Assembly (NCBI GenBank): GCA_951406725.2
Contig: OX597824.1
Location: 35,898,001-35,962,000, forward strand
DNA length: 64,000 bases
Reading direction: 5' to 3'
Source: Octopus vulgaris
Taxonomy: Eukaryota
A program made the position numbers and the translations under genes. This document shows, piece by piece, positions 38,601 to 41,572 of this stretch. How positions within the stretch are numbered: position 1 is the first letter of the stretch; each line of letters begins with the position of its first letter. The notes below the pieces were generated by a model, which was not told the DNA's origin, did not search any database, and saw only the letters and a list, made by a program, of their open reading frames with translations.

Positions 38601-41572
38601 GAATACATATGAATTACATTTGACAGAGTAATCTAAATGCTAAAGGGTTAAATCAATTTTTTAAAAATCTATTTTAAATTGAAATGTGTTGTAGAATGAG
38701 AATTATGTTTAAGAAAAGATCAGCTGCCACGTTTAAACTGTTTTTGATTACAGATGGAAATGTATCTCCTTCACTTACATTGCTGATATTCTCCAGAAAA
38801 ACATGAATATCACTTAATGATATGCCTATACTTTATAAAGTGCTTATTCGCAAGAATTAAAATAATAATCAAAAATTATTTTGCAAAACAGAAATTGTGC
38901 ATAAAATTCTATTTCAAATAAAACTTTACTTCATGTTAAATTTACAAAGCTATCTGCCACAGGCCATGGCTGTTTCAGTTTTTTCGTACAACACCCCTAA
39001 AAAACTTATCAGCCTGTGACTATGTAACATATCGTTATTATACAGTGTGATCCCTGAATGTATATACATATATAATGTAGATTGTTTGAAGTGGTGTACA
39101 GATTTTATATATTAAGAAAATTAAGGTAATCAGGATTTGGATAAAAACTATTTATTTAGTACTTGTGTCCCTTTCAAGGACTCAGCATAAATGATTTCTT
39201 ATGTAAAAGGTATGCATTTTCTTTTATAAGAAATCATTCATGACAAATCCCTGAAAGGGATTAAAGCACTAATTAAATAGTTTTTATCCAAATCTTGACT
39301 ACCTTCTTTTCCTTTATATATATATATATAATGTGAAGGCACGTGGCTTTGTGGTTAAAGCTGTTGTACTCATGATTACTAGATTGTGTGTTTGATTCCC
39401 AGACTAGGCAGTGTGTTGTGTCCCTGAGAAATACACTTCAATTCATGTTTCTCCAGTACCCTTTTTGATCAGGGCAAATGTTGGCCTGCTTACCTAGCCT
39501 ACAGGTTGATGTCATTTGACGGCTAGAATGATGCAAAGTGCATTGTGACTGATGTGTGACAACATCTGATAGTCTTGTCGGTCACATAGTCACATGATAT
39601 ACATATATACAGAAGTTGGACAAAATAATGGAAACACCTTGAAATTTCAAGCAAATTTATTTTAATATTGGGTAGGTCTGTCTTTGGCAGTAATTACAGC
39701 TTGAATCCTATGAGGTATGGACTTGTACAAAGTTTGAATTGTTTCCAAAGGAATTTTTGTCCATTCTTCAGCTAAAACAGTCTCCAGTTCTTGTAGTGAT
39801 GATGGTGGAGGATATCGACTCCTTATTTGTTTTTCTAAGATACACCATAAATGTTAAATAATATTGAGATCTGGGGACTGTGGTGGCCAGATAAGATGTC
39901 TAACTTCACTAGAATGTTCCTTGTGCCATTCAGTAACAACTTTAGCTGTGTGAATTGGTCCTGAAAGATTGTGTTTCCCTCTGGAAACAGTTCCACAAAC
40001 ATAGGATGAATTTGATCATATAAAATGCTTAAATAGTCTTGACTATTAATTCTGCCATGAAGGGAAACCATTGGGCTAGCAGATTTCCAAGATATAGCCC
40101 CCCCCCCCCAGATCATCACAGATCTTTCTCCATGTTTAACAGTTGGAAGAAGGCAGTCTGGATCAAATGCTTCTTTTGGCTGTCTCCACAGGTATACTCG
40201 GCCAATGGTTGGAAATAAAGTAAAGGATGACTTGTCCAAGAAAATAACATTCCACTGCTCTAGGGACCAATTCCATAGGTTTTTATTCCACTCTAAATGC
40301 TTTGCAACATTTGTTTTTGAAAGTAGTGGTTTTCTGATTGCAGCCCTCCCGTGAAATCCAGTTTTGTTCAGCTCCTGGTGAACAGTTTTTGTGAAAACTG
40401 GGTTCTCGAGATGGTCATTAAGTTCTGCAGTAATTTTGAGAGCTGTAATTTCGTGATCTTTTTAACAATTCACATGACTCTGACGGTCCCTATCTGAAAG
40501 TTTTGGTTTTCTTCTGGAGGTTTGTTTTAATGAGGAGGTTTTTCTCTCTTTCATCTGGGTGTCATTACTTTCAAGACAGTACTTCTTCATACACCAAACA
40601 TTTCGGCTGTTTCCGTTACGCTAGCACCTGCCATACAAGCACCAACAATTTGACCTCTTTGGAAGTCCAATGGATCTGTCATTTTAATGAATTTTAATTA
40701 CTTTTTTCTGATGATATCTGAAAAGAAACAGCAATTTTAGCAAAACATTAAGCAACAGTAATAATAAATCAAAAACATAAAAATAAACAAGTGTTTGACA
40801 GTTTAATAGATATTTCAAAATTATGATGCTATGATGCTGGGTGTTTCCATTATTTTGTCCAACCCCTGTGTGTATAGGGAGATATAGATATGTATGTATA
40901 TATGTGTAAGTTTTGTGAATTAAATATGTTGATCCTATTTATTTATTTTTGGAGATGTACTTGCATAGCAAGTGATTTGATCTGAGATCGTGTGCTGGAA
41001 CGAAAACAATTGCAGCGTGGAAGGTATTTGTAAGCCTTTTAAGAAACACACAAAAGCCGTTCAATTCACTTCAACATTTAAGTTTAATTTGTCAAAATAT
41101 TTTCGTCGCTAAAATCCGCGACCTGTTCACTGACAAAAATCTGTGCTGCATACAGATTTTTGTCAGTGAACAGGTCGCGGATTTTAGCGACGAAAATATT
41201 TTGACAAATTAAACTTAAATGTTGAAGTGAATCGAATGGCTTTTGTGTGTTTCTTAAATGACTTACAAACACCTTCCACGCTGCAATTGTTATTTATTTA
41301 TTTTATTCATTTATTTATTTACTTTTATTGTAGGAATTATCAAAGACAGTGTACGTCCAGCATATTGGATTCCTGATGAAACAGTAACACAATGTGCAGT
41401 GTGTAATACAGAATTTGGTCCTAAAGTATCTAAACACCATTGCCGCGACTGTGGTAAGGTGGTTTGCCACAAATGCTCTCCAAACAAGTACTCTGTACCA
41501 CATCGAGGTTGGGACTATCCTGTTAGAGTGTGTCAAAGCTGCGAGGGAAACGGCTCTGCTAATTTATGCTAA
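9767..41572 (+). CDS. ZFYVE1: ZFYVE1 / DFCP1 (double FYVE-containing protein 1), 11 coding exons, 901 aa
   Basis: join(9767..10624,23354..23858,29813..30021,30991..31088,31278..31392,32640..32740,33324..33438,35342..35512,36454..36628,38134..38253,41334..41572) = 2706 nt. All introns are GT-AG with matching phases. Motifs match the DFCP1 architecture: B-box-like Cys/His clusters, Walker [30 protein letters not shown], two FYVE domains (KHHCRxCG...RxC). Confidence 0.96.
12040..12490 (+). repeat. Long polypyrimidine low-complexity tract in intron 1
   Basis: About 450 nt strongly dominated by C/T on the + strand. Confidence 0.85.
12688..12960 (+). mobile_element. tRNA-derived SINE
   Basis: GGAGGCACATGGTCTAGTGGTTAG..GGTTCGAATCTC head and AACAAACAACAAC tail. 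Confidence 0.85.
13150..14740 (+). mobile_element. Highly degraded RTE-like LINE reverse transcriptase
   Basis: Remnants IAFVDL*KAF..VNRE and [21 protein letters not shown] (domain 4, QG..LAP.LFN), rejoined across the MITE at 13485-13978. Boundaries approximate. Confidence 0.6.
13485..13978. mobile_element. hAT (Charlie-like) MITE
   Basis: Begins CAGGGGTCACCAA, ends TTAGGTGACAATTG; near-identical 8-bp flanks GTTAAATG / GTTTAATG. Confidence 0.7.
16900..17885 (+). mobile_element. Interspersed repeat with (AAT)n tail, split by a MITE
   Basis: Collinear with the uninterrupted copy at 41914-42430. Confidence 0.8.
17299..17805. mobile_element. pogo/Tigger-like MITE (TA TSD)
   Basis: TA|CCGTAAATCCTCGAGTATA...TATACACAAGGATTTACAG|TA. 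The empty site is visible in the sibling host repeat near 42317. Confidence 0.8.
19700..20092 (-). mobile_element. SINE family A, full length
   Basis: Minus strand begins CAGGAGTGGCTGTGTGGTAAG..GGTTCAGTCCCACTG and ends in an A-rich AAAAGAGTAAAGAG tail. Confidence 0.88.
20725..21133. mobile_element. MITE with ~28-bp TIRs and 8-bp TSD (Merlin- or hAT-like)
   Basis: TIR GATCTTTTCGGTTTGAACGGCAGTTTTT is perfectly mirrored; TSD AAATATTC at 20717-20724 and 21134-21141. Confidence 0.9.
21648..22060 (+). mobile_element. SINE family A, full length
   Basis: Reverse-complement homolog of 19700-20092. Confidence 0.88.
22170..22840 (+). mobile_element. Cluster of SINE family B copies, one nested (22453-22671) with 14-bp TSD
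   Basis: Repeated GCTGGCAGAAT..GAGTTCAAATTC..GCCTTTCATCCTTT..GATAAA..AGTACCAG; TSD AGAATTTTGTCCAT at 22439-22452 and 22672-22685. Confidence 0.85.
23354..23858 (+). CDS. ZFYVE1: ZFYVE1 exon 2: P-loop NTPase (GBP/atlastin-like) domain
   Basis: Acceptor [65 protein letters not shown]; donor ACAG|GTAAAC, phase 1. Confidence 0.96.
24045..24415 (+). mobile_element. 3' end of a CR1/L2-group LINE
   Basis: [49 protein letters not shown], followed by an A tail. Confidence 0.75.
24860..25380 (+). mobile_element. Second copy of the minisatellite-bearing (GAT)n-tailed retroelement
   Basis: Reverse-complement homolog of 2922-3540 with three 62-bp units plus the diverged unit. Confidence 0.85.
25382..25775. 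repeat. Compound TA/TATG minisatellite
   Basis: Direct reading, ~22-24 nt period. Confidence 0.9.
25792..27509. repeat. ~1.7-kb near-perfect inverted duplication (palindrome) in ZFYVE1 intron 2
   Basis: 25792-~26300 is the reverse complement of ~27010-27509, with one substitution noticed in the unique part and differing (TA)n length. The central 24-nt minisatellite flips orientation near 26600. Confidence 0.95.
27885..28301 (+). pseudogene. PLE GIY-YIG endonuclease domain with two in-frame stops
   Basis: [88 protein letters not shown]. Confidence 0.85.
29326..29436 (+). ncRNA. Degenerate type I hammerhead ribozyme motif
   Basis: CAG CTGATTA A AAATG CCATTTA..TAAATGG..CATTT GAAA CGGTCG TA CTG: stem I CAG/CTG, long stem II, G8 changed to U. 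Confidence 0.6.
29813..30021 (+). CDS. ZFYVE1: ZFYVE1 exon 3
   Basis: Acceptor [54 protein letters not shown]; donor AAA|GTAAGT. Confidence 0.93.
30675..30835. mobile_element. Tigger/pogo-like MITE remnant (TA TSD)
   Basis: TA|CAGTAATTCCTC...GAGGGATTACTG|TA. Confidence 0.7.
30991..31088 (+). CDS. ZFYVE1: ZFYVE1 exon 4
   Basis: Acceptor [40 protein letters not shown]; donor AG|GTAAGA, phase 2. Confidence 0.92.
31278..31392 (+). CDS. ZFYVE1: ZFYVE1 exon 5
   Basis: Acceptor [47 protein letters not shown]; donor AAA|GTAAGT. Confidence 0.93.
32370..32580 (+). mobile_element. Short PLE-type repeat with minimal hammerhead motif (32448-32480)
   Basis: TTT CTGATGA A GAG CTCCA CTC GAAA CA TG AAA; homologous to the reverse complement of 60645-60850; flanked by (TA)n. 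Confidence 0.65.
32640..32740 (+). CDS. ZFYVE1: ZFYVE1 exon 6
   Basis: Acceptor [44 protein letters not shown]; donor GG|GTAAGT, phase 2. Confidence 0.93.
33324..33438 (+). CDS. ZFYVE1: ZFYVE1 exon 7
   Basis: Acceptor [45 protein letters not shown]; donor GGT|GTAAGT. Confidence 0.94.
35342..35512 (+). CDS. ZFYVE1: ZFYVE1 exon 8 (runs into FYVE 1)
   Basis: Acceptor [45 protein letters not shown]; donor GCT|GTGAGT. Confidence 0.94.
36454..36628 (+). CDS. ZFYVE1: ZFYVE1 exon 9: FYVE domain 1
   Basis: Acceptor [49 protein letters not shown]; donor G|GTAAAT, phase 1. Confidence 0.96.
36767..37108 (+). mobile_element. SINE family A, 5'-truncated
   Basis: Homologous to 21648-22060. Confidence 0.85.
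38134..38253 (+). CDS. ZFYVE1: ZFYVE1 exon 10: inter-FYVE linker
   Basis: Acceptor TTTTCAG|TT; ..[25 protein letters not shown]; donor G|GTAAGA, phase 1. Confidence 0.93.
38428..38647. mobile_element. piggyBac-like MITE (TTAA TSD)
   Basis: TTAA|CATTTAGCATT...AATGCTAAAGGG|TTAA; reverse-complement sibling of 1440-1659. Confidence 0.75.
39610..40868 (-). mobile_element. Tc1-like DNA transposon, near full length, transposase disrupted
   Basis: 29-bp TIRs CAG(AA/GG)GTTGGACAAAATAATGGAAACACC with TA at the left end. Minus-strand pseudo-ORF ~40682..39662: [48 protein letters not shown]. Confidence 0.92.
41005..41291. repeat. 287-bp palindrome (140-bp arms, ~7-nt loop) 42 nt upstream of ZFYVE1 exon 11
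   Basis: Symmetry centre at 41148; about five arm mismatches counted by eye, all in the outer half. Confidence 0.95.
41159..41208 (+). ncRNA. Minimal type I hammerhead ribozyme candidate, G3-C8 covariant (mirror copy on minus strand, 41088-41137)
   Basis: TTTGTCA GTGAACA G GTCGC GGATTTTA GCGAC GAAA ATAT T T TGACAAA: 7-bp stem I, 5-bp stem II, palindromic stem III loop, predicted cleavage after 41201. Confidence 0.65.
41334..41572 (+). CDS. ZFYVE1: ZFYVE1 exon 11: FYVE domain 2 and stop
   Basis: Acceptor [62 protein letters not shown]..; TAA at 41570-41572. Confidence 0.96.

What the first reader, a model, noticed from the sequence alone, without database searches (positions are those of the whole stretch)
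41005..41291. Apparently intact G3-C8 covariant hammerhead ribozyme inside a palindrome just upstream of the last ZFYVE1 exon
Seen: 41159-41208 reads stem I TTTGTCA/TGACAAA, core GUGAACA plus one extra G, stem II GTCGC/GCGAC, GAAA, palindromic ATAT and a UUU triplet. An exact mirror copy lies on the minus strand (41088-41137), and both sit in a 287-bp palindrome ending 42 nt before exon 11. Established: the canonical core is C3UGANG8A, C3-G8 is a tertiary Watson-Crick pair, and G3-C8 swaps can retain activity; minimal type I hammerheads with palindromic stem III occur in Penelope-like pLTRs and act as dimers. Inference: the double change C3G+G8C suggests selection for catalysis. In the pre-mRNA the antisense arm is transcribed first and would sequester the ribozyme in ~140 bp of dsRNA, giving a ribozyme/anti-ribozyme switch that ADAR editing could loosen and that might affect splicing of the FYVE2 exon.
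Basis: partly seen in the sequence, partly recalled or inferred. Interest (0 to 1): 0.82.

Follow-up and report, generated by a model that had tools for sequence, protein, structure and literature searches.

The report
Swapped-core hammerhead in octopus Penelope retrotransposon
The palindrome is one of thousands of leftover ends of a Penelope-like jumping gene in an octopus genome, and it carries a likely self-cutting hammerhead RNA whose central base pair is naturally reversed (G3-C8), but nothing suggests that it regulates the ZFYVE1 gene it sits in.

Summary
The G3/C8 core has 1,916 exact matches in the genome; a C3-G8 core in the same stems has none. Full-length copies carry the motif in both pLTRs around an RT + GIY-YIG ORF. 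A sister family and 7 of 14 metagenomic relatives carry a hammerhead at the same place, always with a Watson-Crick 3-8 pair (C-G, U-A) and compensated stems, so G3-C8 is a derived covariation of a real minimal hammerhead. I found no natural G3-C8 case in the papers searched. Catalysis is untested, and the insertion record shows no trace of it: 48 of 100 5' ends pile at the presumed transcription start, 1 of 100 lies near the cut site. The ADAR switch is unsupported: an estimated 230-250 such mirror palindromes exist, simulated editing never frees the fold, no same-strand partner lies in the window, and the intron is spliced out.

The parts
40936..40949 (+). Left target-site duplication (14 bp, ATTT-rich)
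   Evidence: identical to 41291-41304
40951..41151 (-). Main arm: PLE pLTR end, family positions +1 to +201 (presumed transcription start to the distal 3' end)
   Evidence: alignment to the 3' pLTR of a long copy, L065
40951..41004 (-). PLE 'tail', present on this arm only (between the two family 3' ends)
41088..41137 (-). G3-C8 minimal type I hammerhead motif, main arm (antisense in the ZFYVE1 pre-mRNA)
41152..41291 (+). Inverted second arm: family positions +8 to +147, ending at the proximal 3' end; joined head-to-head to the main arm
41159..41208 (+). G3-C8 minimal type I hammerhead motif; core 41166-41172; predicted cut 41201/41202
41258..41291 (+). First 11 codons of the PLE ORF (start ATG), by chance in frame with the FYVE exon
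   Evidence: family ORF start in L103 at 4534
41291..41304 (+). Right target-site duplication
38254..41333 (+). Host ZFYVE1 intron that holds the insertion
   Evidence: GT/AG ends; spliced contigs; the upstream 120-nt exon is inferred from the gap in the contig coordinates
41334..41572 (+). Last coding exon of ZFYVE1 (second FYVE domain)

Best explanation
The palindrome is a head-to-head insertion of two short pLTR ends of a high-copy Penelope-like retrotransposon, whose pLTR carries a minimal hammerhead with a family-wide G3-C8 pair that likely still cuts weakly, as a dimer, in the transposon's own RNA and is likely inert inside this intron. Shown: family membership, copy number, RT + GIY-YIG ORF, partial-tandem pLTRs, two discrete 3' ends, target duplication, fixation of G3/C8, covariation against related PLEs. 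Inferred: a transcript starts at the pLTR about 15 nt before stem I; the PLE protein nicks both strands of an AT-rich target and primes one cDNA at about +146 and the other at about +205; both run to the RNA's 5' end and are joined, which gives the mirror image. Inferred: in full-length tandem transcripts the two hammerheads (4.26 kb apart in L103) pair through the 6-nt palindrome to form a double hammerhead, perhaps with the help of the PLE protein, that would release unit-length RNA; uncut RNA is the main template for insertion. Inferred: G3-C8 arose once on this family's branch from C3-G8. In the ZFYVE1 pre-mRNA the sense motif is predicted to be locked in 140 bp of duplex and to leave with the intron.
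For: 1,916 exact G3/C8 matches and 7,067 exact matches to the 3'-end 19-mer. All 20 of 20 fetched loci with the GIY-YIG region also hold the pLTR unit. L103 shows inverted truncated copy + pLTR + ORF + pLTR, cores at 4442 and 8703. A 1,000-aa open stretch with RT motifs and Pfam GIY-YIG above cut-off. In the first 100 pattern hits on C1, 34 end at +145-154 and 66 at +196-205, and 15 of 15 inverted pairs use one end of each kind, as expected from the two RT start sites reported for a lizard PLE (PMC11167929, parts 1-2 of 4 read). One descriptor finds the motif just 3' of the ORF in this family, the sister family and 6 of 14 metagenomic relatives, 0 of 12 reverse strands and 0 of 1,200 shuffles; a seventh (L231, U3-A8, weak stem I) only in the looser scan. 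The 3-8 pair is Watson-Crick in all nine motifs (6 C-G, 2 U-A, 1 G-C). The sister family (60% RT identity, support 99/98) and L227/L228 keep C3-G8. The 12 variants shared by 8 or more sampled arms outside the motif's paired and core positions contrast with none that breaks a pair or core base in 42 positions (two changes make G-U pairs); Fisher p 0.007 for 0/42 vs 12/89, threshold chosen after seeing the table. The C3G/G8C double mutant partly restores cleavage in a PLE hammerhead (PMC11167929).
Against: No cleavage assay. Only 1 of 100 sampled 5' ends lies within 4 nt of the cut site (and it keeps three bases upstream of it) against 48 at -7..+7, so cut RNA leaves no mark on the insertion record. 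The modelled double hammerhead (-27.2 kcal/mol) is less stable than the best dimer (-31.3) and two monomers (-29.4). Rfam models do not recognise it. Neighbouring families vary at other core positions too (C9 in the sister family and L229, U15.1-A16.1 in L228), which could mean relaxed rather than kept catalysis. The core lies about 22-28 nt after the presumed start, where promoter constraint could also hold it. Whether this insertion is fixed or polymorphic is unknown.
Confidence: 0.72

Rival explanations
1. Same PLE insertion, but the motif no longer cuts: its fold and sequence are kept as an internal Pol II promoter element and/or a binding site for the PLE protein, and the 3-8 pair serves folding only.
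For: 5' ends pile just upstream of the motif and not at the cut site; D. virilis Penelope has an internal promoter with a downstream element (PMC2377424, passages read); hammerhead mutants did not affect insertion in vitro and no reads ended at the cut site in the lizard PLE (PMC11167929); several core variants in the clade.
Against: A DNA promoter element would not keep a Watson-Crick 3-8 pair in nine of nine motifs, a self-complementary stem III and a non-G at position 17; the 3' half of the motif lies beyond +35.
Confidence: 0.22
2. One reading: the host uses the palindrome as an ADAR-controlled ribozyme/anti-ribozyme switch on splicing of the last ZFYVE1 exon.
For: The antisense arm is transcribed first and would sequester the motif; a 140-bp intronic duplex 42 nt from an acceptor is a plausible ADAR substrate (general knowledge of cephalopod editing, recalled).
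Against: 13 of the first 100 exact-core hits on C1 are mirror pairs (counted by eye), about 230-250 genome-wide by scaling; with every A outside the motif made unpairable the stems still form with probability under 1e-17, and editing would also hit five core adenosines; no same-strand partner in 64 kb; branch/polypyrimidine region lies outside the insertion; spliced contigs at depth 55 and 139 in two studies; the locus has 5 arm-to-arm differences and a mutated start codon like any aging copy.
Confidence: 0.03
3. A MITE (non-autonomous DNA transposon) whose inverted repeats resemble a hammerhead by chance.
For: Near-perfect long palindrome, high copy number.
Against: Most copies are single arms with variable 5' truncation, arms are unequal (tail), and long copies continue into an RT + GIY-YIG ORF.
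Confidence: 0.01

Closest known systems
[quoted passage not shown]
   Same: Location in pLTR, extra base between 9 and 10.1, G10.1-C11.1, palindromic stem III, most copies dispersed and single, some in opposite-strand pairs.
   Different: Core pair is G3-C8; that paper reports C3-G8 and, in Schistosoma, U3-A8.
Poseidon PLE of the green anole, PAc (Frangieh et al. 2024, PMC11167929, parts 1-2 of 4 read)
   Same: C-terminal GIY-YIG, AT-rich targets, two RT start sites near the ORF start that define the tail, hammerhead near the start codon, no sign of cut RNA in vivo.
   Different: There C3G/G8C is an engineered rescue mutant; here it is the natural state. This element has a CX3CX2C linker (Neptune/Nematis type) and a 55-60-nt tail.
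Neptune and Nematis EN+ PLE clades (Craig et al. 2021, PMC8557442, passages read)
   Same: Zn-finger-like linker before GIY-YIG, CCHH, (TA)n targets, tandem/inverted structure.
   Different: Clade not fixed by phylogeny here; non-canonical hammerhead core.
Natural hammerhead core variants (Perreault et al. 2011, PMC3088659, section 8 and passages read)
   Same: Natural 3-8 covariation (U3-A8) and a U15.1-A16.1 variant, both also seen in relatives here.
   Different: G3-C8 is not named in the text read; figures and supplements not seen.
Non-LTR retrozymes (PMC7229834 passages; bioRxiv 10.64898/2026.07.22.740005 part 1 of 5)
   Same: Short non-coding units with a type I hammerhead, linked to PLEs.
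   Different: Retrozymes are head-to-tail tandem arrays; these are dispersed single or head-to-head pLTR ends of an autonomous family.

Membership tests
EN+ Penelope-like element | Single ORF with PLE-type RT and C-terminal GIY-YIG endonuclease | tested here: met
   1,000-aa open stretch with RT motifs read directly; Pfam GIY-YIG 25.5 bits vs cut-off 22.6; Pfam RVT_1 only weakly in the sister protein
EN+ Penelope-like element | Partial-tandem pLTRs flanking the ORF | tested here: met
   L102, L103
EN+ Penelope-like element | Inverted 5'-truncated copy at the 5' end | tested here: met
   L103, L104, L108; 15 of 85 sampled short loci
EN+ Penelope-like element | Tail at one end only (two 3' ends) | tested here: met
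   34 and 66 of 100 arms; 15 of 15 pairs
EN+ Penelope-like element | Hammerhead motif in the pLTR | tested here: met
   (variant core)
EN+ Penelope-like element | Spliceosomal intron in the 5' UTR (some PLEs) | not tested
   an acceptor-like sequence precedes +1 but no spliced form was sought
Neptune/Nematis clades | CX2-5CxxC linker upstream of GIY-YIG and CCHH | tested here: met
   read directly in P0005; feature as described in PMC8557442
Neptune/Nematis clades | RT phylogeny with reference clades | not tested
   tree holds no named reference elements
Type I minimal hammerhead ribozyme | Core U4 G5 A6 A9 G12 A13 A14, A15.1-U16.1, H17 | tested here: met
Type I minimal hammerhead ribozyme | Literal C3-G8 consensus | tested here: not met
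   G3/C8 in 60 of 66 sampled arms that cover the core; C3-G8 in 0
Type I minimal hammerhead ribozyme | Watson-Crick pair between 3 and 8, covarying in homologs | tested here: met
   9 of 9 motifs, three pair types
Type I minimal hammerhead ribozyme | Stems I and II, self-complementary stem III | tested here: met
   7 bp, 5 bp, 6-nt palindrome
Type I minimal hammerhead ribozyme | Match to Rfam hammerhead models | tested here: not met
   no hammerhead family among 16 matches at E<=10
Type I minimal hammerhead ribozyme | Self-cleavage after H17 | not testable with these tools
   indirect test on genomic 5' ends negative, 1 of 100
Non-LTR retrozyme | Head-to-tail tandem units each with a hammerhead | tested here: not met
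   copies dispersed or head-to-head

The most novel reading that the evidence does not exclude
This is the first natural, catalytically active G3-C8 hammerhead, amplified to thousands of copies, and it belongs to a PLE clade in which four of five sampled families carry a non-consensus core (G3-C8; U3-A8 with C9; C3-G8 with C9; U15.1-A16.1). The clade would be a natural mutagenesis of the hammerhead active site, tolerated because the PLE protein props up the fold or because the core doubles as the element's internal promoter, and consensus-based searches would be missing many PLE ribozymes, perhaps including those said to be absent from some clades.
Probability: 0.4. Interest if true: 0.65.

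Novelty: new variant of a known kind. Interest (0 to 1): 0.45.

Why it matters
The C3-G8 pair was proven with engineered swaps, and the natural covariation I found in print is U3-A8. A purine-pyrimidine reversal kept through the spread of a whole transposon family is evolutionary evidence that the pair, not the base identity, matters, and that PLE hammerheads are under structural selection although their job is unknown. It shows that CUGANGA-based scans and Rfam miss real motifs. The family also gives a clean genomic record of the PLE mechanism: two priming sites used in complementary fashion in every inverted pair, and 5' ends at the presumed transcription start rather than at the ribozyme cut. 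For ZFYVE1 biology it most likely does not matter.

Tried and rejected
Rfam scan: only generic hairpin (miRNA) matches below gathering score, no hammerhead. Search for a C3-G8 subfamily in the same stems: 0. Search for an ancestral G3-G8 intermediate: 246 copies have a non-C at position 8 and 42 of the first 100 listed have G (counted by eye), but 20 G8 and 20 T8 copies are spread over the same subfamilies with similar private divergence (2.8% vs 3.5%), and in 4 of 6 G8 palindromes the mirror arm keeps C8, so these are recurrent mutations. Search for a second G3-C8 family with a TATA/TCGA-type stem III: 15 hits vs 14 in the reversed control, whereas the canonical core gave 103 vs 17; other stem III geometries were not searched. 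An untemplated G before the 5' pile-up (cap copying) looked frequent, but several cases are explained by the target duplication or the mirror arm, so it is not used. MAFFT did not align the short motifs in register; the comparison rests on descriptor scans. The 'any change' Fisher test counted one of two wobble changes and is not used. No run is on record as RNA (no RNA holder listed); the contigs laid cannot show editing, read ends or retention at this locus because other copies swamp it. Earlier findings of the scan: none. Literature searches for a natural G3-C8 hammerhead: terms C3G/G8C, G3-C8, G3C8, U3-A8/A3-U8; octopus; only engineered mutants were found. Not seen: Lunse et al. 2017 (not held), Przybilski and Hammann 2007 (reference listing only), file 1 of the PMC4209133 supplement (not searched), figure contents of all papers; any of these could hold a prior natural example. 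In the PMC8557442 supplement I saw 2 of 4 'Octopus' rows (both Naiads) and 2 of 30 core-heptamer hits.
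Full report
Observation. The arms are 41005-41144 and 41152-41291, 96% complementary; the 50-nt motif folds into stems I and II with z -3.4; the whole region folds into one hairpin of -223.5 kcal/mol. 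Rfam gives only sub-threshold miRNA-like hairpin matches and no hammerhead. The downstream exon is a FYVE domain, 99% identical to a protein named ZFYVE1 of Octopus sinensis, so the host is an octopus; the exon number was not checked.

It is a repeat. One arm found 911 candidates in the genome, the 40 scored being mostly 97-99% identical. The exact G3/C8 core in its stems occurs 1,916 times, with 0 in the reversed control; a 19-mer at the arm's 3' end occurs 7,067 times. Flanks of 30 copies showed single arms, unequal mirror pairs, a shared extension of about 55 nt beyond the palindrome and insertion into (TA)n or other AT-rich tracts. In the window the main arm is 41151-40951 on the minus strand (family +1 to +201), the second arm 41152-41291 (+8 to +147), between 14-bp duplications.

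It is a Penelope-like element. One copy held a GIY-YIG fragment. All 20 loci fetched around that fragment also hold the pLTR unit, typically 1.3-1.5 kb downstream of the endonuclease region. Long copies encode RT followed by a CX3CX2C linker and GIY-YIG. L103 has the textbook layout: inverted truncated copy, pLTR, ORF, pLTR, with same-strand cores 4.26 kb apart and the ORF start about 90 nt after the core. These are the features described for EN+ PLEs, with a Neptune/Nematis-type linker (PMC8557442, passages).

How the palindrome forms. I took the first 100 hits of the 3'-end pattern on contig C1 as an unselected sample. 3' ends fall at two places, +145-154 (34) and +196-205 (66), and all 15 inverted pairs use one of each. 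This matches the two internal RT start sites that define the PLE tail in vitro (PMC11167929). 5' ends: 48 of 100 at -7..+7, 10 further upstream, 8 at +8..+16, 33 scattered, and 1 within 4 nt of the predicted cut at +58. I infer a transcript starting at about +1 from an internal promoter, as in D. virilis Penelope (PMC2377424), copied from both nicked target strands and joined head to head. The mirror hammerhead is thus a by-product: 5 of 85 sampled loci have both motifs whole, and 13 of the first 100 exact-core hits form such pairs.

Is G3-C8 a real covariation? Within the family it is fixed: 60 of 66 sampled arms covering the core have G3/C8; 97 copies have a non-G at 3, 8 of them C, none with G8. 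Copies with G8 are scattered recurrent mutants, not an older subfamily. Variants shared by many copies fall in the leader, loop II and downstream; the two in stems make G-U pairs. Outside the family, the best named homolog (60% identity) is a second, young octopus family whose pLTR has the homologous motif with C3-G8, C9 and compensated pairs in stems I, II and III. Of 26 metagenomic relatives, 14 were examined 3' of the ORF match (2 with 7 nt or less; the other 12 loci end inside the ORF); one descriptor finds the motif in 6, never on the reverse strand or in 1,200 shuffles, and a looser scan adds L231. All nine motifs have a Watson-Crick 3-8 pair: six C-G, two U-A, one G-C. In the RT tree (12 rows, midpoint root) this family and the sister group together (99/98) inside a clade of five (100/99) whose other members have C3-G8 or U3-A8, so G3-C8 is most simply derived. 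Four of those five cores are non-consensus, L228 having U15.1-A16.1. No second G3-C8 family of the geometry tested appears in the genome, while canonical ones do.

Does it cut? Untested. Engineered C3G/G8C partly rescues hammerheads (PMC8495972 passage), including a PLE hammerhead that needs its protein; minimal PLE hammerheads are weak and work as dimers (PMC4209133). The double-hammerhead fold is within 2-4 kcal/mol of competing folds but not the best. The genomic 5' ends give no sign of cut templates, as in the lizard element. I put retained weak catalysis at about 0.7-0.75 given the covariation, and the non-catalytic reading at about 0.2-0.25.

The host switch. In the pre-mRNA the motif is buried; making even all adenosines outside it unpairable leaves the probability of its stems below 1e-17 in the nearest-neighbour model, and editing would strike five core adenosines. 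A monomer lacks stem III and the window holds no second same-strand copy. Contigs from two putative RNA runs of different studies join the upstream exons to the FYVE exon at depth 55 and 139, with intronic contigs at depth 2-6; contigs show presence, not absence, and editing at this locus could not be assessed. I reject the switch (0.03). Editing of the duplex as a passive substrate remains possible.

Novelty. The literature read reports natural U3-A8 (PMC3088659 section 8; PMC4209133) and only engineered G3-C8 (PMC3884650 passage; PMC11167929). Five searches found no natural case, but a key paper on PLE hammerhead variants and several supplements and figures were not available. Verdict: a new variant of a known kind; the ribozyme variant and its clade are of real interest to specialists, the ZFYVE1 locus itself is ordinary. 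Interest 0.45.

Noticed in passing
window 41258-41572 (+): The plus arm supplies the PLE start codon in frame with the FYVE exon through 42 nt of intron without a stop: a potential 104-aa FYVE-only product if the arm acts as a promoter. No RNA evidence among the listed contigs.
   Followed up: partly
L228 (3' of ORF), L229:2497, L201 pLTR: Related PLE hammerheads carry other rare core states: U15.1-A16.1 (L228), C9 (L229 and the octopus sister family), U3-A8 (L229, L231).
   Followed up: partly
L197-L226: A second, very young octopus PLE family with many intact ORFs of about 1,310 codons at 99% identity; likely still active.
   Followed up: partly
family position 27 (core position 8), genome-wide: C8 is changed in 246 copies against 97 for G3, and C-to-G is as common as C-to-T (42 vs 43 of the first 100); recurrent across subfamilies, cause unexplained.
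   Followed up: partly
family positions -19 to +1 (e.g. L065:7645-7664): A branch-point/polypyrimidine/AG-like sequence lies right before the 5' pile-up; it could be the acceptor of a 5' UTR intron as in D. virilis Penelope as well as a start site.
   Followed up: no
window 39106-39322, 39603-39638/40840-40875, 42424-42507: Other inverted repeats in and after the same intron; probably further mobile-element remnants and possible double-stranded RNA.
   Followed up: no
L117, L120, L137: Canonical C3-G8 minimal hammerheads of other repeat families lie by chance in the flanks of sampled loci.
   Followed up: no
G000:C23:13059080-13104404: Four degenerate copies of the family's RT region at about 12.5-kb spacing, interleaved with another PLE-like ORF.
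   Followed up: no
window 41005-41291: Two of the five arm-to-arm differences are states that also segregate among other family copies, which might mean the arms came from two different template RNAs.
   Followed up: no
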